Shown here: positions 1 to 29,310 of the stretch, in pieces
Layout: each line of letters opens with the position of its first letter
Position numbering within the stretch: the first letter of the stretch is position 1
From: an uncultured candidatus Porisulfidus sp.
GTDB taxonomy: Bacteria; Pseudomonadota; Gammaproteobacteria; Poriferisulfidales; Poriferisulfidaceae
Direction: 5' to 3'
Length of the DNA: 64,000 nt
NCBI GenBank assembly: GCA_965116525.1
Contig: OZ220694.1
Location: 48,770-112,769, forward strand
Program-made: the position numbers and the translations under genes
The notes under the pieces: model-generated
What the model was told of the DNA's origin: nothing
Databases searched by the model: none
What the model saw: the letters and a program-made list of their open reading frames with translations, nothing else

Positions 1-1602
1 ATGGGCCCGGATGATTGGCGCTGGCATATGTATGACACGGTCAAGGGTTCGGACTGGCTGGGAGATCAGGATGCTATCCAGTACATGTGCCGCGAAGCCA
101 TTCCGGCGATTATTGAACTGGAGCACTACGGCGTCCCGTTTTCACGGACGGACGAAGGCAAGATCTACCAGCGCCCCTTCGGTGGGATGACGACCCATTT
201 TGGCGAAGGGATCGCACAACGCACCTGTGCTGCCGCCGACCGCACCGGCCACGCTATCCTGCATACGCTGTATCAACAATCCCTCAAGCACAACGCCAAA
301 TTCTTTATCGAATACTTCGCCATGGATCTGGTCATGGACGACGAAGGTCGGTGCTGTGGCGTGATGGCTTGGGATCTCGCGACCGGGGAACTGCACCACT
401 TTCACGCACACACGGTTTTGTTGGCGACGGGAGGCTACGGGCGCGCTTATTTCTCCTGTACTTCCGCGCATACCTGCACGGGAGACGGCAACGGCATGGT
501 GCAGCGCGCCGGGTTGCCTTTGCAGGACATGGAGTTTGTACAGTTCCATCCGACCGGCATCTATGGTGCTGGCTGCTTGATTACGGAAGGCGTGCGGGGA
601 GAAGGAGGCTACCTGACGAACAGCAAGGGCGAGCGCTTCATGGAACGGTACGCACCGAATGCCAAGGACTTGGCGTCACGCGATGTGGTCAGCCGCTCGA
701 TGACCATCGAGATTAACGAAGGGCGGGGCTGTGGGTCCGAGGAGGATCATATCCACTTGCACCTGGAGCACCTTGGCGCCGAAGTGATCAAGGAACGCCT
801 GCCGGGTATTGCAGAGTCGGCTCGCATTTTCGCCGGGGTCGACGTGACCCGTGAACCGATTCCGGTCCTGCCGACCGTGCACTACACCATGGGCGGCATT
901 CCGACGAATTACCACGGCGAGGTGGTGACGATGCGGGACGGGAATCCGGATGCGGTCGTGCCTGGGCTGATGGCCATCGGGGAAGCGGCTTGCGTCTCGG
1001 TGCATGGGGCGAATCGCCTAGGATCTAACTCCTTGCTGGACTTGGTGGTCTTCGGGCGGGCAGCGGCCATACGGGCGACCGAACTGGTTAAGCCGGGGGC
1101 CGCACATCCGGAAGCACCGTCTGCATCGGTCGAACGGATCCTGGATCAGTTCGACAAGCTCCGCCACGCCAGTGGCGGGACTCCGACCGCGGAACTCCGC
1201 TTGCAGCTCCAGCGGGCCATGCAGAAACATGCGGCGGTATTCCGGACCGGCGAAACCCTGAAAGAGGGCCTGGAACAGGTCCGGGTCGCCGATCGAGCCT
1301 TCAGCGACATCCACGTCAGCGACCGGTCCCTGATCTGGAATACTGATTTGGTTGAAACCCTGGAATTACAAAACCTCTTGCCACAGGGAGTGGCGACGCT
1401 GGAATCGGCGCTCAACCGTTTGGAGAGCCGGGGCGCCCATGCCCGGGAAGATTACCCAGAGCGGAACGACAGCGAATGGATGAAGCATACCGTTTGTTGG
1501 ACCGACGAACAGGGAACGTGCCGGATTGATTATCGGGATGTCCATATGTACACTCTGGACGACGAAGTGGAAGTGGTTCCACCGAAAGCCCGCGTATACT
1601 GA
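1..1602 (+). CDS. sdhA: Succinate dehydrogenase flavoprotein subunit (5'-truncated by window edge)
   Basis: Motifs [46 protein letters not shown]; followed by sdhB. Confidence 0.97.
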
Positions 1603-25050: not shown

Positions 25051-26063
25051 CTCGCGCCCCGGGAGGCACCCGTCAAAGCGAGGCATGCCGCCTCCAAGTT
25101 CAACTGCGGCGCAGGAATGCTGGATTCTCGCGCCCGGATCTCCAGCAACTTTTGGTAGACATTGAGGATTGCCTGGACATTCTGTACAGAATCTTTTTCG
25201 TCCACTTTCTTTCGGGCTTCCGCCACCGCCCGGTCGATCAGCCAGACCAGCCGCAGATCCATGGAGATTTCCTCTTGTGGCTCTTCGCTCCCCGATCGGG
25301 CTTTCCCCTTGCTTTGGGCTGGAGTGACATTCCATGCGCTGGCGAAAGCTGACTCCGATTGCTTGCCTTCCAAGACATCGCGCAAGCCTTGTTCGAATTC
25401 GTTTCGGAAGTCCACTTGACCATCCTGCTGCATCTTCAGAGCCCGCATCGGCATGCCGCCCCCTGCGTTCAAGGCGCCTTCGGCCTGTTCAGGAGTCATG
25501 AAGTCAGCCAACCACGCCCGGCTCTGTTCTGGACTCGGTTCCGGCAAGGCATACCTCTGGCACCGGCTTCGGATCGTCGCCAGCAGGCGTCCCGGCTGAT
25601 GGCTGATCAGAAAAAGCATAGTGTCGGGGGGTGGCTCTTCAAGACTTTTCAAGAGCGCATTCGAGGCCGCCCGGGTCATCCTTTCGGCCGGCTCGATCAC
25701 TAAAAGCCTCATACGCCCGTAGTTGGCCTTGAGGGTCAGCCTCTGGATGATTTGGTCTCGGATGTCGCCAATCCCGATGGAGTAGCGGGTGATGGTTAAC
25801 CAGTCAATGTCGGGGTGGGATTTTCTTTCGAGTTGGCGGTATGAAACGTACTGCTTGCACGAAGGACATTCGTTGCAGGGCAGGCCTTGTGCTGTTGGTG
25901 AGTGGCACTGAACGCCGCGCACGAAGGCTTCGACAAGCCAGCGCTTGCCGATTCCGGACGGCCCGGTGACCAGCACTGCGTGTGGCAGCCGGCCTTCTCG
26001 GTAGGCAACCCTCCATTGCTCCCAGATCGGTTCCAGCCAAGTCGGCACTTGCTGTTCGGCCAT
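25047..26063 (-). CDS. holB: DNA polymerase III subunit delta'
   Basis: GPSGIGK, PCNECPSC, HPD, NALLKSLEEPP, TIRSRC; downstream of tmk. Confidence 0.92.
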   Translation of the reverse strand: MAEQQVPTWLEPIWEQWRVAYREGRLPHAVLVTGPSGIGKRWLVEAFVRGVQCHSPTAQGLPCNECPSCKQYVSYRQLERKSHPDIDWLTITRYSIGIGDIRDQIIQRLTLKANYGRMRLLVIEPAERMTRAASNALLKSLEEPPPDTMLFLISHQPGRLLATIRSRCQRYALPEPSPEQSRAWLADFMTPEQAEGALNAGGGMPMRALKMQQDGQVDFRNEFEQGLRDVLEGKQSESAFASAWNVTPAQSKGKARSGSEEPQEEISMDLRLVWLIDRAVAEARKKVDEKDSVQNVQAILNVYQKLLEIRARESSIPAPQLNLEAACLALTGASRGAS

Positions 26064-26674
26064 CAGATCAGCTCAAGCACAATTTCCAAAAGTTCCTGAT
26101 GAACCTCATCCACTGGGCGTTCCGCATCGACCACCCGGTAGCGCTCGGGTTCGGAGGCGGCCTGGTCGAGGTAATACTGTCGCGCACGAGTGAAGAACTC
26201 CACATCGTTTTCTTCATAGCGGTCTTTTTTCTGCCCGCGCTTTTGAACGCGTTCCAACGCCGTGGTCACCGAGGTGTCCAGAACGAGAACCAGGTCCGGG
26301 CGCAAGTCGGGGAGAAGCCATTGCGCCAATTCTCCGACCCGGTCAACGCCGAGCCCCTGACCTGCCCCCTGATAGGCGAAACTGGCATCGAGAAAACGGT
26401 CCGTCAGCACCCATGAACCAGCCTCTAGGGCCGGTTTGATGAGTGTGTGAACATGCTCCGCCCGGGCCGCAAAAAGTAGAAGCAGTTCAGCTTCCACGCT
26501 TGAGGGTGCTTGGGTCTTGGACAGCAGGATTTCCCGGATGCGTTCGCCAAATTCAGTCCCGCCGGGCTCCCGGGTCGGCAGGCAGGAAATCTTGTGGGAC
26601 TCAAGCAAGTCCACGAGAGCCGGCAGATGAGTTGACTTTCCGGCCCCTTCGATGCCTTCAAGGCTGATAAACAT
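26063..26674 (-). CDS. tmk: Thymidylate kinase (original N-terminal codons displaced by insertions)
   Basis: FISLEGIEGAGKST, TREPGG, DRF; the remaining ATG lies inside the 8-bp TSD. Confidence 0.95.
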   Translation of the reverse strand: MFISLEGIEGAGKSTHLPALVDLLESHKISCLPTREPGGTEFGERIREILLSKTQAPSSVEAELLLLFAARAEHVHTLIKPALEAGSWVLTDRFLDASFAYQGAGQGLGVDRVGELAQWLLPDLRPDLVLVLDTSVTTALERVQKRGQKKDRYEENDVEFFTRARQYYLDQAASEPERYRVVDAERPVDEVHQELLEIVLELI

Positions 26675-26675
26675 G
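26668..26675. repeat. 8-bp target-site duplication TAAACATG (copy 1)
   Basis: Identical to 27994-28001; directly abuts the TIR. Confidence 0.9.
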
Positions 26676-26702
26676 GGGAATTACTAACATAACTAGACAA
26701 AC
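26676..26702 (+). repeat. TIR at the tnpB 3' end
   Basis: GGGAATTACTAACATAACTAGACAAAC; contains the tnpB stop codon. Confidence 0.9.
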
Positions 26703-27940
26703 TCGCGCCTGTCCGGTTCTGCAATTTCTTGACGCTTCACAGGCCGACTGTGGCAGGATGCCCCGCCGGTGTCGCCACCTCCACGTCCAGTTGCCCCATT
26801 CCCGAAGGCCAAAATATTCAATGCGGCGTTCACGTCCGCATCGTCTGCGTGCCCGCAAGCGGTGCACTTGAAGTCTGATTGCTTTCTGCTGTCCTTGTCG
26901 ACATGCCCGCACTGGTGGCAGGTCTGGCTGGTGTACGCCGGATGCACCTTGCGTACTTCCGTCTTGTAGTTCAGGCACAATTCCAGCGTGCCCCATGCGC
27001 TGGCCAGAATCTTCCGGTTCAGGGCAGATTTCGCATTGACGCTCTTGCCAGGATTTTCGATGGTTCCCTTGGCGGATTTAGTCATGCCCCGGATTTTCAG
27101 TTTCTCCATGTAGGCCACGTCGTACCGTGAAGCAATGTCCTTGCTGGTGTGGTGCGCCCAGTTAAGCCGTGCGAAGCGTTCGGCCCGGAACGCCCTCTGC
27201 AACCGCACTTTCGTCACCTTCCTGCGATTGCTTCCTTTCACCTGACGCGCCAACTTGCGCTGGTATCGCTTGCGCCGGGCGACCTTTTTCCCAAGGTCGG
27301 GGCCCGGGTGCTTCGTGCCATCCGACAGTACGGCCCAACGTCCCTCCGACACGTTACGGTCGATGCCCACTTCCCGGATGCTGTGCGGAAGACTCGCTTC
27401 TGCCTGAACTTCATAGGTCAGGTAGGCGTACCAGTCTCCGCATTCATGCTTGATCCGGCCGGACTTGAATTCGCCGTCCGGGTACGGATTGTTGCCGTTT
27501 ATCTTCATCCAGCCGATCTTCTGCACGTACAGGCTGTCGCCCACCACCTTCGCGGATTCGTAATTAATTGGAAACGAAGGCGCAGTCGTCCACTTGCCAT
27601 GGAATCGCGGAGGCTTCCGATTGAGTTTGCCTCCCGCTTTCACATCAGCAAAGAATGCCTTGTAGCTCGTCTCGATGGGCTTCAGGGAGATTCTGACCAC
27701 CTTGGACGGATAGTCTTGCAACCATTTTGTCGTGCCATCTTCTCTCCGCATGACGGTGAATACATGGCATAGGGAATAGTGCCGGAAGTCCGGCTTGATG
27801 CCGAACTCGTATTCATCCTTGAGTTTCCCGACCATGTGGTTCCAGACGAACCGACAGGCTCCGGCGGTGCCGTGGAGCAACTGGTGCTTCCGGCTGGAAC
27901 CCGGATGCAGGCGGTAACGAATGGTTCGATGGACTATCAT
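26693..27940 (-). CDS. tnpB: RNA-guided endonuclease TnpB
   Basis: YRLHP...GACRFVWN HTH, RuvC-I VGIDRN, RuvC-II YMEKL, YTSQTCHQCG...CTACG zinc ribbon, RuvC-III DADVNAALNI. Confidence 0.95.
   Translation of the reverse strand: MIVHRTIRYRLHPGSSRKHQLLHGTAGACRFVWNHMVGKLKDEYEFGIKPDFRHYSLCHVFTVMRREDGTTKWLQDYPSKVVRISLKPIETSYKAFFADVKAGGKLNRKPPRFHGKWTTAPSFPINYESAKVVGDSLYVQKIGWMKINGNNPYPDGEFKSGRIKHECGDWYAYLTYEVQAEASLPHSIREVGIDRNVSEGRWAVLSDGTKHPGPDLGKKVARRKRYQRKLARQVKGSNRRKVTKVRLQRAFRAERFARLNWAHHTSKDIASRYDVAYMEKLKIRGMTKSAKGTIENPGKSVNAKSALNRKILASAWGTLELCLNYKTEVRKVHPAYTSQTCHQCGHVDKDSRKQSDFKCTACGHADDADVNAALNILAFGNGATGRGGGDTGGASCHSRPVKRQEIAEPDRREFV
26729..26830 (-). ncRNA. Putative omegaRNA (reRNA) scaffold overlapping the tnpB 3' end
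   Basis: Follows the RuvC-III codons; nested pairings GACG/CGTC, CGAC/GTCG and GGCGGG-GCAT-CCTGCC; ends in TCAA; boundaries inferred. Confidence 0.45.
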
Positions 27941-27946
27941 TGCAGG

Positions 27947-27975
27947 ATTATTGTCCTTGAGTTGTGGTCTGTCAA
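27947..27975 (-). promoter_or_regulatory. Sigma70-type tnpB promoter with its -35 inside the TIR
   Basis: TTGACA-N17-AATAAT, then 6 nt before the tnpB ATG. Confidence 0.7.
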
Positions 27976-27993
27976 GTTATGTTAGTAATTCCC
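27967..27993 (-). repeat. TIR at the tnpB 5' end
   Basis: Reverse complement GGGAATTACTAACATAACTTGACAGAC. Confidence 0.9.
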
Positions 27994-28001
27994 TAAACAT
28001 G
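27994..28001. repeat. 8-bp target-site duplication TAAACATG (copy 2)
   Basis: Identical to 26668-26675. Confidence 0.9.
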
Positions 28002-28005
28002 CCCC

Positions 28006-29310
28006 CTGATTTCAATTAGTAACTGCAACGATTCCGGCAACCGGCGGGAATGGAGAATGAGTTGCGGTACCCTCTCATTGTCAAAAACCGCCTGGATGAG
28101 AGGCAATTATGAGCGGTTACACGCAACTCACCCCGAGACAACGATACCAGATTGAGCTGTATCGGAACGAATACCAACTGAGCCAAGCGGAGATCGCCCG
28201 GCGTCTGGGCATTCACCGAAGCACGGTCGGCCGCGAGCTGAGGCGCAACGGCAGTGGCCGGTCGGGAGGCTATCAGGCCGAACGGGCGCAACAGAAAGCC
28301 GAGCAGCGGCGCCGGCAGAAAACCCGACGGCGGGTTCCGCCGGCCCTGGTGCACCAGGTGGAGGCGCTGCTTCGGCAATACTGGAGCCCGCAGCAGATCA
28401 GCCAATGGCTGCGCAAGGAGAGGCGCCCGAGCGTCAGTCACGAGTGGATCTACCAATGGATCCTGAAAGACAAGCGCGGCGGCGGCGACCTGTACCGTTG
28501 CCTGCGCCATTGCCGGAAGCGGCGCAAGCGGTATGGCAGCGTGCCGCGAGGCTCGACGATTCCGGATCGCACGCCGATCGAACAACGCCCGGCGGTGGTC
28601 GAGACCCGGTCCCGCCTGGGGGACTGGGAAGCCGACACCGTGATCGGATGCCGCAGCAGCGGGGTTCTGGTGTCCCTGACCGAACGCCGCTCCCGGCTGG
28701 TGCGCCTGGCCCATCTCGCCCGGCGCAAGGCCGACGACGTGGCGGCGCAGGTGATCGACCGGCTCCAGCCGCTGGCAGCCTGGGTCCTCACCGTGACGTC
28801 GGACAACGGCACCGAGTTCGCCGGCCACCGCCGGATCGCCCGGCACCTGCAGGCGGCCTTTTACTTTGCCCGGCCCTATGCCGCCTGGCAGCGCGGCAGC
28901 AACGAGAACGCCAATGGTCTGATCCGGCAGTACTTCCCGAAGTCCCACCGCTTCGACACGATCACCGAAGAAGAACTACGCCGGGTTGAGGAGCAACTCA
29001 ACAATCGACCGCGGCGCTGCCTTGGCTGGCGCACCCCGAACGAGGTGTTCTTCGGGCCGGATGCCCCCGTGGCGGAAGCCTGGCGGGAACAGTTGGAACG
29101 GCTTCTGTAAGCGTCTCTTCGTCCCCCACCAAAGCCCGTCTGGCAACGCCAGAACCGCCTCCCTTTGGACGGACGAGCCCGAAAGTGGCTTCGGAACGCT
29201 AGATACCCAGGCTGCCGCTGCCGAGAATCGAAAAAACTTTCCTTGGAGACAGCCGACTGACCGTCTCGCACTTCGTTTTACAATCTGTTGCAGTTACTAG
29301 TTGAAATCAG
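28006..29310 (+). mobile_element. IS30-family insertion sequence
   Basis: TIRs CTGATTTCAA(T/C)TAGTAACTGCAAC at both ends; inserted in a C run consistent with a 2-bp TSD; encodes an IS30 transposase. Confidence 0.92.
28109..29110 (+). CDS. IS30-family DDE transposase
   Basis: HTH IARRLGIHRSTVGRELRRN, WSPQQI, GDWEADT, SDNGTEF, RGSNENANGLIRQYFPK, LNNRPR. Confidence 0.95.
   Translation: MSGYTQLTPRQRYQIELYRNEYQLSQAEIARRLGIHRSTVGRELRRNGSGRSGGYQAERAQQKAEQRRRQKTRRRVPPALVHQVEALLRQYWSPQQISQWLRKERRPSVSHEWIYQWILKDKRGGGDLYRCLRHCRKRRKRYGSVPRGSTIPDRTPIEQRPAVVETRSRLGDWEADTVIGCRSSGVLVSLTERRSRLVRLAHLARRKADDVAAQVIDRLQPLAAWVLTVTSDNGTEFAGHRRIARHLQAAFYFARPYAAWQRGSNENANGLIRQYFPKSHRFDTITEEELRRVEEQLNNRPRRCLGWRTPNEVFFGPDAPVAEAWREQLERLL

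What the first reader, a model, noticed from the sequence alone, without database searches (positions are those of the whole stretch)
26668..28001. TnpB nuclease carried in a TIR- and TSD-bounded, transposase-less element
Seen: tnpB fills almost all of a 1318-bp unit bounded by 27-bp inverted repeats (GGGAATTACTAACATAACT(A/T)GACA(A/G)AC, 25/27 identical) and a perfect 8-bp direct repeat TAAACATG. The three RuvC acidic residues (GID, YME, DAD) and the zinc ribbon are present. There is no TnpA (Y1 or serine recombinase). Established: prokaryotic TnpB normally sits in IS200/IS605 or IS607 elements, which lack TIRs and make no TSD; ~25-bp TIRs with an 8-bp TSD are typical of DDE families such as IS1595/IS1. 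Inference: this is a non-autonomous DDE-type element, mobilised in trans, that has captured an RNA-guided nuclease. It would be a prokaryotic parallel to Fanzor capture by eukaryotic TIR transposons. I do not know of a description of this arrangement but could not search for one.
Basis: partly seen in the sequence, partly recalled or inferred. Interest (0 to 1): 0.92.

Follow-up and report, generated by a model that had tools for sequence, protein, structure and literature searches.

The report
TnpB nuclease riding a transposase-less IS1595 element
This is a small mobile DNA element that carries an RNA-guided nuclease gene (tnpB) but no transposase, and whose ends match those of IS1595-type jumping genes in related bacteria, so it shows a bacterial guide-RNA nuclease living inside a cut-and-paste type transposon.

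Summary
A 1318-bp unit (26676-27993) has 27-nt inverted ends (25/27) and a perfect 8-bp duplication, TAAACATG. It holds only a 415-aa tnpB.

- Related sponge-symbiont genomes (Ca. Porisulfidus-type MAGs) carry many copies of the same tnpB unit. After removing duplicates, 14 of 26 insertion sites have a flanking 8-bp repeat matching at 7 or 8 of 8 positions.
- The same genomes hold IS1595-family transposase elements and a 565-bp MITE. Their inverted ends are up to 25/25 identical to those of tnpB units, and all six have perfect 8-bp duplications.
- All 11 relatives examined lack the insertion at this site and carry the target once.
- No unit carries both tnpB and a transposase.
- This genome has only a truncated IS1595 transposase, so its single copy looks stranded.

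The nuclease looks functional. It has the D-E-D triad and the zinc finger. A promoter in the upstream end implies a leaderless mRNA. A roughly 150-nt conserved, covarying RNA ends exactly at the element tip.

DDE-transposon-associated TnpBs with inverted ends, and solo copies moved in trans, were reported in 2023 (PMC10691335). IS1595 is not named there. I therefore call this a new variant of a known kind.

The parts
26668..26675 (.). Target-site duplication copy 1 (TAAACATG). It contains the ATG of tmk on the minus strand.
   Evidence: Sequence read. The same 8-mer occurs once at the empty site of relatives.
26676..26702 (.). Inverted terminal repeat on the tnpB 3' side (the 'right end' in tnpB orientation). 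It contains the tnpB stop codon, and its tip is the 3' end of the predicted guide-RNA scaffold.
   Evidence: the repeat finder I1, 25/27. The covariance-model match ends exactly at 26676.
26693..27940 (-). tnpB, 415 aa, with an intact RuvC D194/E279/D369 triad and a CxxC..CxxC zinc finger.
26676..26828 (-). Predicted omega/reRNA scaffold (about 153 nt). It overlaps the last ~45 codons of tnpB and the right inverted repeat. The guide would start at 26675 and run into tmk.
   Evidence: Synonymous-codon identity rises to 0.82-0.91 over the last ~70 codons, against 0.49-0.75 elsewhere. Model R1 matches the 3' ends of distant lineages. 93.2% of cells are paired and 21 of 31 pairs have two-sided changes.
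26798..26803 (-). Internal GGGAAU segment predicted to pair with the last six bases of the element (26676-26681), closing the scaffold next to the guide.
   Evidence: Helix 1: 4 of 6 pairs have compensatory changes, e.g. A-U in 10 sequences and C-G in 9.
26695..26714 (-). Hairpin whose 3' arm is the inner part of the right inverted repeat.
   Evidence: Terminator-like scan. The arm sequences differ but stay complementary between end subtypes in the alignment.
27947..27975 (-). Sigma-70-like promoter: TTGACA, 17 nt, AATAAT. The -35 box lies inside the left inverted repeat. The -10 box ends 6 nt before the tnpB ATG, implying a leaderless or near-leaderless mRNA.
   Evidence: 11 of 12 matches; 1 site found against 0.7 expected. 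In 17 of 23 family copies the best -10 also ends 6 nt before the ATG.
27967..27993 (.). Inverted terminal repeat on the tnpB 5' side (the 'left end').
27994..28001 (.). Target-site duplication copy 2 (TAAACATG).
26063..26674 (-). tmk (thymidylate kinase), the flanking host gene. Its ATG now lies 18 nt downstream of the tnpB stop codon, and its first bases would be the guide sequence.
   Evidence: Pfam Thymidylate_kin 168.2 bits; sequence.

Best explanation
The unit is a non-autonomous member of the IS1595 family of DDE transposons. It is a 'mobile insertion cassette': IS1595-type inverted ends, an 8-bp target duplication, no transposase. Its only cargo is a tnpB gene with its guide-RNA module.

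Shown:
- It inserted as a whole into the 15-17-bp spacer between mltG/yceG and tmk.
- Sister copies in related genomes sit at many different sites with their own 8-bp duplications.
- The same genomes hold IS1595 transposase elements with near-identical ends.
- tnpB and the transposase are never in one unit.
- This genome has no intact IS1595 transposase.

Inferred:
- The element is moved in trans by IS1595 transposases that recognise its ends. The window's single copy is currently immobile.
- tnpB is transcribed as a leaderless mRNA from a promoter partly inside the upstream end.
- The last ~150 nt of the transcript fold into the guide-RNA scaffold, and the closing helix of that scaffold uses the very tip of the downstream inverted repeat.
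- The guide is therefore the flanking DNA. Here that is the 8-bp duplication plus the first bases of tmk.
- By analogy with IS605 TnpB, the nuclease would cut the unoccupied allele (target = duplication + right flank, with the left flank supplying the TAM). Recombinational repair would then copy the element back in, so a DDE-type cassette would gain a homing or retention drive.
For: Anatomy.

Empty site: 11 of 11 relatives have tmk directly after mltG with one copy of the target. TAAACATG is exact in 3 of them and matches at 7 of 8 in 4 more.

Family moves as a unit: 29 elements were examined (8 with 8/8 and 6 with 7/8). After de-duplication to 26 sites, 9 are 8/8 and 5 are 7/8. Displaced control 8-mers never exceed 4/8.

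Transposase partner:
- Units L049-L053 carry 307-314-aa proteins. Pfam gives DDE_Tnp_IS1595 at 144-148 bits plus Zn_ribbon_IS1595 for 2 of the 5 tested. NCBIfam transpos_IS1595 gives 171 and 188 bits for 2 tested. All 5 are hit by PF12762 in the genome search.
- Their ends are GGGAATTATGTAGCAAAATCTGCAA or GGGAATTATGTAGGTAACTTGRCAG. These are the same subtypes as tnpB units; L033, for example, is 25/25 identical to L051.
- 6 of 6 units, including the 565-bp MITE L054, have perfect 8-bp duplications.

No unit has both genes in 5 genomes.

Own genome: the only PF12762 hit covers profile positions 73-153 in a 103-aa ORF, below the NCBIfam cut-off (53.3 against 75).

Nuclease integrity. 26 of 27 copies keep ORFs of 411 aa or more.

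Promoter.

Guide-RNA module.

Clade: in a 68-row tree, all 15 TnpBs labelled as having GGG-type inverted ends, plus 4 unlabelled, form one side of a branch (SH-aLRT 99). All 7 with IS605-like hairpin ends are on the other side.

IS1595 relatives make 8-bp duplications (PMC10045372, passage). Transposase-less cassettes can be activated by a cognate transposase, and IS1595 members carry passenger genes (PMC3129680, passages).
Against: - No transposase element with the window's own end subtype (GGGAATTACTAACATAACTTGACAG) was found. In 6 genomes that subtype occurs only on the window copy, on one tnpB copy in G001 and as one orphan end in G004. The nearest transposase-bearing ends (L049) match at 19 of 25 by my own count from the and print-outs.
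- G001 has at least 9 tnpB copies but only fragments of an IS1595 transposase.
- 12 of the 26 sites have a flanking repeat of 6/8 or less. One of these is a script mis-anchoring that reads 8/8 by eye (L027).
- Trans-mobilisation, RNA expression, guide boundaries, TAM and cleavage are all untested.
- The covariation counts were made on an alignment fitted to the model, and part of the modelled RNA is also coding sequence.
- A DDE excision already leaves a break, so the benefit of a homing nuclease is less obvious than for IS605 (argued in PMC13565253, passage).
- The left-flank bias that might be a TAM is weak: a purine at -1 in 13 of 13 sites. It may instead reflect transposase target choice.
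Confidence: 0.8

Rival explanations
1. The tnpB cargo is functional, but its RNA uses a fixed guide made of the outer ~18-20 nt of the inverted repeat, downstream of the conserved hairpin. The nuclease would then cut at the ends of elements of its own end subtype and take part in excision, rather than targeting the flank.
For: A conserved hairpin sits just inside the right end, leaving 18-21 nt of end sequence 3' of it. A conserved TTGACAG motif lies where a TAM would sit relative to that segment in five of six end subtypes. The distance from that motif to the element tip is similar to TnpB cut distances; that figure is recalled, not tested.
Against: The last six bases of the element pair with an internal GGGAAU segment, with compensatory changes in 4 of 6 pairs. 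This places the tip inside the scaffold, as with the long-range pairing next to the guide described for TnpB reRNAs (PMC10711439, passages). The commonest end subtype lacks TTGACAG. TTGACA is also explained as the -35 box of the tnpB promoter.
Confidence: 0.05
2. tnpB is a mere passenger with no role for the element: a neutral hitch-hiker, or one on its way to decay or domestication. One possibility is that it is kept here only because its promoter and read-through now express the essential tmk gene.
For: The insertion separates tmk from its former ribosome-binding site and puts its ATG 18 nt after the tnpB stop on the same strand. The copy is single and cannot move in this genome. It is present in contigs of all 4 runs laid, from 2 studies, with no contig joining across it.
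Against: Across the family, 26 of 27 copies at many unrelated sites keep full-length ORFs with an intact catalytic triad. The 3' RNA module is under strong extra constraint and covaries. The inverted-end TnpB clade is old, down to ~35% identity across two phyla, yet remains intact.
Confidence: 0.08
3. A canonical IS605/IS607-type tnpB element inserted once into a pre-existing MITE, so the inverted ends and the duplication have nothing to do with tnpB.
For: MITEs with these ends exist (565-bp L054). More distant TnpB homologues (28-37% identity) show IS605-like palindromic hairpins at both ends (L104, L134, L136, L137, L159, L160, L165, judged by eye).
Against: The whole unit recurs at at least 14 different sites with its own duplications. 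There are only 26 nt between the left end and the ATG, and they form the promoter. The stop codon lies inside the right end. The end tip covaries with an internal RNA segment. No IS605-type hairpin ends fit inside the unit.
Confidence: 0.02
4. The ends belong to some other transposase, for example the IS630-like or IS4-like genes seen inside some Caldilineaceae copies, or the neighbouring IS30, rather than to IS1595.
For: L184 has DDE_3 and HTH ORFs, and L182 has a DDE_Tnp_1 ORF, between the same kind of ends. An IS30 element lies 4 bp from the window unit. PMC10691335 describes an IS630-linked TnpB branch with a separate HTH protein.
Against: The IS630-like segment in L184 is a nested insertion. 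It has its own inverted ends and sits inside the left end, and homology to an uninterrupted copy resumes after it. Its flanking TA is my own reading of the printed junctions. In L182 the extra ORF splits tnpB. The IS30 element has unrelated 24-nt ends. Only IS1595 elements share the ends over 25 nt together with the 8-bp duplication.
Confidence: 0.03

Closest known systems
DDE-transposase-associated TnpB branches (DDE-1 to DDE-6) of Altae-Tran et al. 2023, PNAS (PMC10691335; section 9 read in full, other passages via find)
   Same: Prokaryotic TnpB sits inside transposons with inverted terminal repeats. The tnpB 3' end lies close to a transposon end. Solo TnpBs are flanked by the same ends and proposed to be moved in trans.
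   Different: The partner family here is IS1595. It is not named in that paper's main text (0 occurrences) or in the 2026 review's list of ISL2, IS630 and IS1031 (PMC13565253, passage). Here tnpB and the transposase were never found in one unit (7 genomes). I could not test whether this clade is one of DDE-1..6 because the supplements are closed.
IS1595-family insertion sequences with passenger genes, and their MITE/MIC derivatives (Siguier et al. 2009, cited in PMC3129680; only the citing passages were seen)
   Same: About 25-nt inverted ends starting GGG. An 8-bp duplication (PMC10045372 passage for IS1016/Merlin). Cargo genes: N6/N4 DNA methylases in L050, L051, L056 and L186 (the L051 methylase is by my reading of its translation, it was not run through Pfam). 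Transposase-less derivatives also occur.
   Different: The cargo is an RNA-guided nuclease whose RNA scaffold is built partly from the transposon end itself. The cassette lacks the transposase altogether.
IS200/IS605 and IS607 tnpB elements, including TnpB-only 'IS1341-type' elements
   Same: Same protein family (Pfam and NCBIfam guided_TnpB; 35% or lower identity to plasmid TnpBs). The guide-RNA module is at the 3' end of the gene and ends at the element boundary. The RNA model also weakly matches hairpin-type relatives (L136 at E 3e-4, L044, L160).
   Different: Those elements have no inverted terminal repeats and make no target duplication (PMC3627910 and PMC13565253, passages). This one has both. 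It scores below the NCBIfam IS200_TnpB (153.9 against 425) and IS607_TnpB (80.8 against 350) cut-offs.
Fanzor1/Fanzor2* in eukaryotic cut-and-paste transposons (PMC3627910; PMC10711439, passages)
   Same: A TnpB-type nuclease captured by TIR/TSD transposons, often as a non-autonomous single-gene element. [quoted passage not shown]
   Different: This case is prokaryotic. The 8-bp duplication is variable in sequence, so it cannot be scaffold and should be the first part of the guide. No descent relationship to Fanzors was tested.

Membership tests
TnpB (RNA-guided nuclease, OMEGA system) | OrfB_IS605 / TNB zinc-ribbon / HTH_OrfB domain set | tested here: met
   Pfam PF01385, PF07282 and PF12323 all above cut-off. 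NCBIfam guided_TnpB 209.8 bits against cut-off 100.
TnpB (RNA-guided nuclease, OMEGA system) | RuvC D-E-D catalytic triad and C4 zinc finger | tested here: met
   D194, E279, D369 and C341/C344/C359/C362 are invariant in 8 sequences. They align to the ISDra2 TnpB structure chains.
TnpB (RNA-guided nuclease, OMEGA system) | Structured guide RNA encoded at the 3' end of the gene and ending at the element boundary | tested here: met
   Computational only. Excess synonymous conservation. Covariance model R1 hits the 3' ends of distant lineages and stops at the element tip. 21 of 31 pairs show two-sided changes. No Rfam family matched. No RNA data.
TnpB (RNA-guided nuclease, OMEGA system) | RNA-guided, TAM-dependent DNA cleavage | not testable with these tools
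   Needs a biochemical or plasmid-interference assay.
IS200/IS605 family element | Subterminal hairpin ends, no inverted terminal repeats, no target duplication | tested here: not met
   27-nt inverted ends and an 8-bp duplication. The empty site shows a true duplication.
IS200/IS605 family element | Y1 (HUH) TnpA in the element or family | tested here: not met
   No such ORF in the 1318-bp unit. The genome was not searched for Y1 transposases. NCBIfam IS200_TnpB is below cut-off.
IS607 family element | Serine recombinase TnpA; no TIR or TSD | tested here: not met
   No such ORF in the unit. TIR and TSD are present. NCBIfam IS607_TnpB 80.8 bits against cut-off 350.
IS1595 family (autonomous IS) | Encodes a DDE_Tnp_IS1595 transposase with an N-terminal zinc ribbon | tested here: not met
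   None in the unit. The genome has only a truncated copy elsewhere.
IS1595 family (non-autonomous derivative, MIC/MITE-like) | Inverted ends matching those of transposase-bearing IS1595 elements | tested here: met
   Family-level match of up to 25/25 (L033 against L051). The window's own subtype matches L049 at 19 of 25 by my own count. No transposase element of the exact window subtype was found.
IS1595 family (non-autonomous derivative, MIC/MITE-like) | 8-bp target-site duplication | tested here: met
   Window 8/8. 14 of 26 family sites at 7/8 or better. 6 of 6 IS1595/MITE units at 8/8. The literature value is 8 bp (PMC10045372 passage).
IS1595 family (non-autonomous derivative, MIC/MITE-like) | Mobilised in trans by an IS1595 transposase | not testable with these tools
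   Inferred from shared ends and co-occurrence in 4 of 5 Porisulfidus-type genomes with intact transposases.
DDE-associated TnpB branches of PMC10691335 | TnpB clade placed in one of DDE-1..DDE-6 | not testable with these tools

The most novel reading that the evidence does not exclude
An old TnpB clade, down to ~35% identity and present in sponge-associated Gammaproteobacteria and Chloroflexota, has co-evolved with IS1595-type ends. The transposase-recognised tip of the inverted repeat doubles as the guide-adjacent closing helix of the omega RNA, and the upstream repeat doubles as the promoter of a leaderless tnpB mRNA. The clade lives only as transposase-less cassettes. The guide is 'duplication + flank'. 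With a very relaxed, purine-type TAM supplied by the opposite flank, the nuclease would cut the empty allele. That would give a DDE cut-and-paste cassette a homing drive, and would make it a natural TnpB with near-TAM-less targeting.
Probability: 0.3. Interest if true: 0.75.

Novelty: new variant of a known kind. Interest (0 to 1): 0.55.

Why it matters
TnpB biology has been worked out for IS605/IS607 elements, which excise without scars and have neither inverted ends nor duplications. How the guide-RNA module coexists with a DDE transposase that needs symmetrical ends and makes a variable duplication is poorly documented for prokaryotes.

This family gives a clean, multi-copy natural example with the following features:
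- the cognate transposases are identifiable;
- empty sites are available;
- there is a testable RNA model in which the transposon tip is part of the scaffold;
- end subtypes appear to have been swapped between closely related nucleases.

It is a direct bacterial counterpart of Fanzor capture. It would let one test whether homing works for DDE elements, and what TAM such a nuclease tolerates.

For this genome, it also shows two insertion sequences packed into a 15-17-bp spacer in front of an essential gene.

Tried and rejected
- Rfam scan of 26300-28300 at E up to 1: only a chance P9 sRNA hit inside tmk (E 0.33). No known omega-RNA family matched.
- RNA evidence: the look-up of sequencing runs listed 5 holders and none is on record as RNA ('no RNA holder listed'), so expression could not be examined.
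- Read laying on 4 contig-type runs from 2 studies: contigs bridge both junctions of the element. No joint skipping the element was listed, but contigs cannot show absence of rare empty alleles. Part of the cover over the tnpB 3' region comes from related copies in other organisms (loose ends at 26724-26877).
- Plasmid collection, protein mode: 3858 records, all below 60% identity (best 35%). Nothing informative on context.
- Even sample of the phylum: 1 of 401 genomes, the window's own, has a match at E <= 1e-60. The clade is not common, but this is a sample only.
- Search for an autonomous element with the window's exact end subtype: none found in 6 genomes. One orphan end in G004 lies next to ordinary genes.
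- Target-site/TAM logo: a purine at -1 in 13/13 and at -3 in 12/13 on the left flank, with no mirror bias on the right (+1 pyrimidine in 6/13). IS1595 and MITE units (n=6) read R|N8|Y in 5/6 on both sides, by my own reading of the flanks printed. The sample is too small to call a TAM. This is kept as a lead.
- First pass for inverted ends with a gapped local aligner over-extended into flanks and mis-set boundaries. It was replaced by motif-anchored scoring. That scoring still mis-anchors L027 (a 2-nt deletion in its left end; 8/8 by eye) and the Caldilineaceae copies L040-L042, whose left ends lie further upstream.
- Classification of 68 of 80 metagenome loci that had at least 120 nt of flank. 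Only L096-L099 and L101 show GGG-type ends; L096 and L098 had their boundaries mis-set and were re-anchored. The 'hairpin' labels for 7 loci are by eye. The other 56 are unclassified, so the tree (quick search, LG+G4, SH-aLRT only) shows clustering of labelled rows, not a full census. L101 sits on a long branch.
- The idea that IS630-like genes in L184 are the partner transposase was rejected as a nested insertion.
- Supplementary files of PMC10691335, which may already list this clade, could not be read.
- Structure prediction, complex prediction, the protein atlas and the large homology searches were not run. The questions here did not need them.


Full report
WHAT IS THERE. The stretch 26668-28001 reads: TAAACATG, then a 27-nt end (26676-26702), then the reverse strand of a 415-aa ORF (27940..26693), then the inverted copy of the end (27967-27993), then TAAACATG again. 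The two arms are 25/27 complementary and are the best inverted pair in the region. The ORF is a TnpB. Pfam gives OrfB_IS605, Cas12f1-like TNB and HTH_OrfB_IS605 above their cut-offs. NCBIfam guided_TnpB scores 209.8 bits against a cut-off of 100, while the IS200/IS605-specific and IS607-specific TnpB models stay far below theirs. The best matches among solved structures include ISDra2 TnpB (E 2.1e-26). D194, E279, D369 and the four zinc-finger cysteines are invariant in an alignment reaching 33% identity. The unit has no second gene. The stop codon lies inside the 3'-side repeat, and only 26 nt separate the 5'-side repeat from the ATG.

IT IS A REAL INSERTION WITH A REAL TARGET DUPLICATION. 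The element sits on the start of tmk (Pfam Thymidylate_kin); the tmk ATG lies within the left copy of the 8-mer. I pulled the tmk region from 11 genomes of the same genus. In all 11, tmk follows the 3' end of the YceG/MltG gene (Pfam YceG for the window's copy) after about 15 nt. None has an element there, and each has one copy of the target. TAAACATG is exact in 3 and matches at 7 of 8 in 4 more, including the closest genome, which has 94% tmk identity. In the window the same short spacer also received an IS30-family element at 28006-29310. It has 24-nt ends that are 96% complementary and scores 298 bits on NCBIfam transpos_IS30. Its ends are unrelated to those of the tnpB unit.

THE UNIT MOVES AS A WHOLE. 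The window's genome (1.57 Mb, one contig, 97.8% complete) has one copy. The 19-nt end motif occurs only at its two ends. A scan of one genome per species found 37 loci encoding relatives. Most are in Ca. Porisulfidus-type and other sponge-associated gammaproteobacterial MAGs at 66-83% identity, with several copies per genome. Four loci are in two Caldilineaceae MAGs at 39% identity.

Motif-anchored scoring of 29 full-length elements gave GGG-initiated inverted ends in nearly all. The flanking 8-mers matched 8/8 in 8 elements and 7/8 in 6. Control 8-mers taken 8 nt further out never exceeded 4/8 (the printed tally counts the window twice). Adding genus and metagenome copies and removing orthologous duplicates reduced 47 rows to 26 sites. 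Of these, 9 are 8/8, 5 are 7/8, 3 are 6/8 and 9 are lower. One of the low ones (L027) is a mis-anchoring and reads 8/8 by eye. In the genus, 8 of 16 genomes carry the family at E <= 1e-100. The complete genome G012 (90% tmk identity) has none. The nearest relative, G011 (94%), has 2 copies elsewhere but not at tmk.

THE ENDS ARE IS1595 ENDS. I searched five relatives for the 13-nt end motif. Besides pairs about 1.3 kb apart, this gave pairs 2.2-3.1 kb apart and one pair 565 bp apart. Five of the large units each encode a 307-314-aa protein of the IS1595 transposase family. Pfam gives DDE_Tnp_IS1595 at 144 and 148 bits plus Zn_ribbon_IS1595 for the two tested. NCBIfam transpos_IS1595 gives 171 and 188 bits for two tested. 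All five are hit by PF12762 in the genome search. They often carry a DNA methylase as well. The 565-bp unit is a MITE. All six have perfect 8-bp duplications, and their ends are the same subtypes as those of tnpB units. For example, L051 and the tnpB unit L033, from the same MAG, are identical over 25 nt. IS1016/IS1595 relatives are known to make 8-bp duplications (PMC10045372, passage).

No unit carries both genes in these five genomes. In the window's genome the only IS1595 match is a 103-aa C-terminal remnant followed by a methylase-HNH gene. The window copy therefore has no resident enzyme to move it. The window's own end subtype was found only on one other tnpB copy and as one orphan end. 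Its closest transposase-bearing relative (L049) shares 19 of 25 positions by my count.

AN OLD, DEDICATED TnpB LINEAGE. Other, much more distant TnpB lineages in the same genomes also sit between GGG-type inverted ends with 7-8-bp repeats.
- The L177/L178 family includes a second element in the window's own genome, L009, at 83% nucleotide identity over 1459 nt with L178.
- The L181 family also has such ends.
- So does a metagenome copy, L101.

The two Caldilineaceae genomes contain many end pairs; at least 9 in G036 are 1.38-1.61 kb apart. They also hold intact IS1595 transposases. I examined the ends of one of these (L186), and they are related to the tnpB-unit ends. Two larger Caldilineaceae units are tnpB cassettes hit by other insertion sequences: an IS630-type element nested inside the left end of L184, and a DDE_Tnp_1 gene splitting tnpB in L182.

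By contrast, 68 of 80 metagenome loci had enough flank to examine. Only the four close relatives and L101 have such ends. Among the 28-37% homologues, several show IS605-like palindromic hairpins at both ends.

In a 68-row tree, all 15 rows labelled with inverted ends, plus 4 unlabelled rows from the same genomes, form one side of a branch (SH-aLRT 99). All 7 hairpin-labelled rows are on the other side. The search was quick, the labels are partly by eye, and 42 rows are unlabelled. An even sample of 401 genomes of the phylum had no other member at E <= 1e-60. End subtype does not follow TnpB phylogeny. The window (subtype with CTAACATAAC) and L014 (commonest subtype) are 81% identical proteins. 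This suggests that ends are exchanged.

HOW IT PROBABLY WORKS. Transcription: the left repeat contains TTGACA at positions 19-24. After a 17-nt spacer comes AATAAT, and this -10 box ends 6 nt before the ATG (11 of 12 matches). In 17 of 23 family copies the best -10 likewise ends 6 nt before the ATG. This implies a leaderless mRNA with no Shine-Dalgarno sequence.

Guide RNA: the last ~200 nt are far more conserved at the nucleotide level than a TnpB C-terminal tail needs. Identity of synonymous codons is 0.49-0.75 along residues 1-346 and 0.82-0.91 over residues 347-413. I built a covariance model from the last 150 nt of 22 copies. It matches, full length, the 3' ends of the distant inverted-end lineages. 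Matches include L179-L181 and L176 at E 1e-10 to 4e-14, and L101 and the Caldilineaceae copies at about 5e-5 to 6e-4. Where I had mapped the right end independently (L043, L040-L042, L181), the match stops at the element tip. The model also matches hairpin-type relatives weakly.

On the resulting alignment 93.2% of cells pair, against 76% in shuffles and 28-50% with slid partners. 21 of 31 pairs have two-sided changes. The caveats are that the alignment is fitted to the model and that part of the region is coding. The outermost helix joins an internal GGGAAU (26803..26798) to the last six bases of the element. Where the tip reads ...AGUCCC, the internal partner reads GGGACU (A-U in 10 sequences, C-G in 9). 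This is the same logic as the long-range pairing next to the guide described for TnpB reRNAs (PMC10711439, passages). It places the scaffold end at the transposon tip.

The guide should therefore be the flank: the 8-bp duplication followed by downstream DNA. Here that is the first bases of tmk. The matching target exists intact only on an unoccupied allele, where the bases to the left of the 8-mer would serve as the TAM. The left flank shows a purine at -1 in 13 of 13 well-defined sites and at -3 in 12 of 13, with no mirror bias on the right. IS1595 and MITE units show a symmetric R|N8|Y tendency in 5 of 6, by my reading of the flanks printed. The left-flank bias may therefore be target choice rather than a TAM, and I leave it open. 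Homing or retention by cutting the empty allele is inferred from IS605 biology, not shown.

WHAT IS KNOWN. Classical descriptions say TnpB-only elements lack inverted ends and duplications (PMC3627910 passage; PMC13565253 passage). Altae-Tran et al. 2023 (PMC10691335, section 9 read in full) report six DDE-transposase-associated TnpB branches, all with inverted terminal repeats. They also report solo TnpBs with nearly identical ends, which they suggest are mobilised in trans. Only IS630 is named in the text, and IS1595 does not occur. A 2026 review lists ISL2, IS630 and IS1031. Two full-text searches combining TnpB with IS1595, or with DDE, inverted-repeat, omegaRNA and non-autonomous terms, found no description of this pairing. 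The supplements were closed, so prior listing cannot be excluded.

The kind is therefore known. What appears new is the partner family, the strictly transposase-less life style of the clade, the use of the end tip in the RNA scaffold and of the other end as promoter, and the apparent end swapping.

VERDICT. Interest is 0.55. Confidence that this is an IS1595-type non-autonomous tnpB cassette is about 0.9. Confidence in the flank-derived guide is about 0.6, and in a homing or retention role about 0.35.

Noticed in passing
window 28006-29310: A complete IS30-family element (transposase 28109-29110, 24-nt ends 96% complementary) is inserted 4 bp from the tnpB unit, in the same 15-17-bp mltG-tmk spacer. 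In all 4 runs laid, its contig depth is about 4 times that of the flanks, and loose ends at both tips point to several copies elsewhere.
   Followed up: partly
window 26660-26700 and 27994-28020: The insertion separated tmk from its former ribosome-binding site, which now precedes a 7-codon ORF running into the left repeat. The tmk ATG now lies 18 nt after the tnpB stop on the same strand, so this probably essential gene seems to depend on read-through or coupling from the element.
   Followed up: no
own genome G000:C1 about 184.16-185.62 kb (L009 818-2276), outside the window: A second tnpB cassette from a different, distant lineage (33-45% identity to the window protein). It has its own ~20-28-nt inverted ends and is 83% identical in DNA to a copy in another genome (L178).
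   Followed up: partly
own genome G000:C1:831.4-833.8 kb (L056), outside the window: A 5'-truncated IS1595 transposase (103-aa remnant) is followed by a 584-aa N6/N4 DNA methylase with an HNH domain, and by one GGG-type end. IS1595 units with a methylase cargo recur in relatives (L050, L051, L186).
   Followed up: partly
L184 (Caldilineaceae) 316-2836; L182 236-3328: These are tnpB cassettes hit by other insertion sequences. An IS630-type element (split HTH and DDE_3 ORFs, own inverted ends; flanking TA by my reading) is nested inside the left repeat of L184. A DDE_Tnp_1 gene splits tnpB in L182. Such nesting could mimic a TnpB-IS630 'association' in neighbourhood surveys.
   Followed up: yes
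L054 (G001:C1:16578-17142): A 565-bp MITE with the commonest end subtype and a perfect 8-bp duplication (AAAATCGC). It lies in a genome that has at least 9 tnpB cassettes but only fragments of an IS1595 transposase.
   Followed up: partly
family-wide: At least six end subtypes differ at positions 9-18 and do not track the TnpB tree. This suggests exchange of ends between cassettes, perhaps to match whichever transposase is available.
   Followed up: no
left flanks of 13 family insertions: A purine occurs immediately 5' of the duplication in 13/13 and at -3 in 12/13, and the first duplicated base is C or A in 12/13. There is no mirror bias downstream. This could be a degenerate TAM, transposase target choice, or small-sample noise.
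   Followed up: partly
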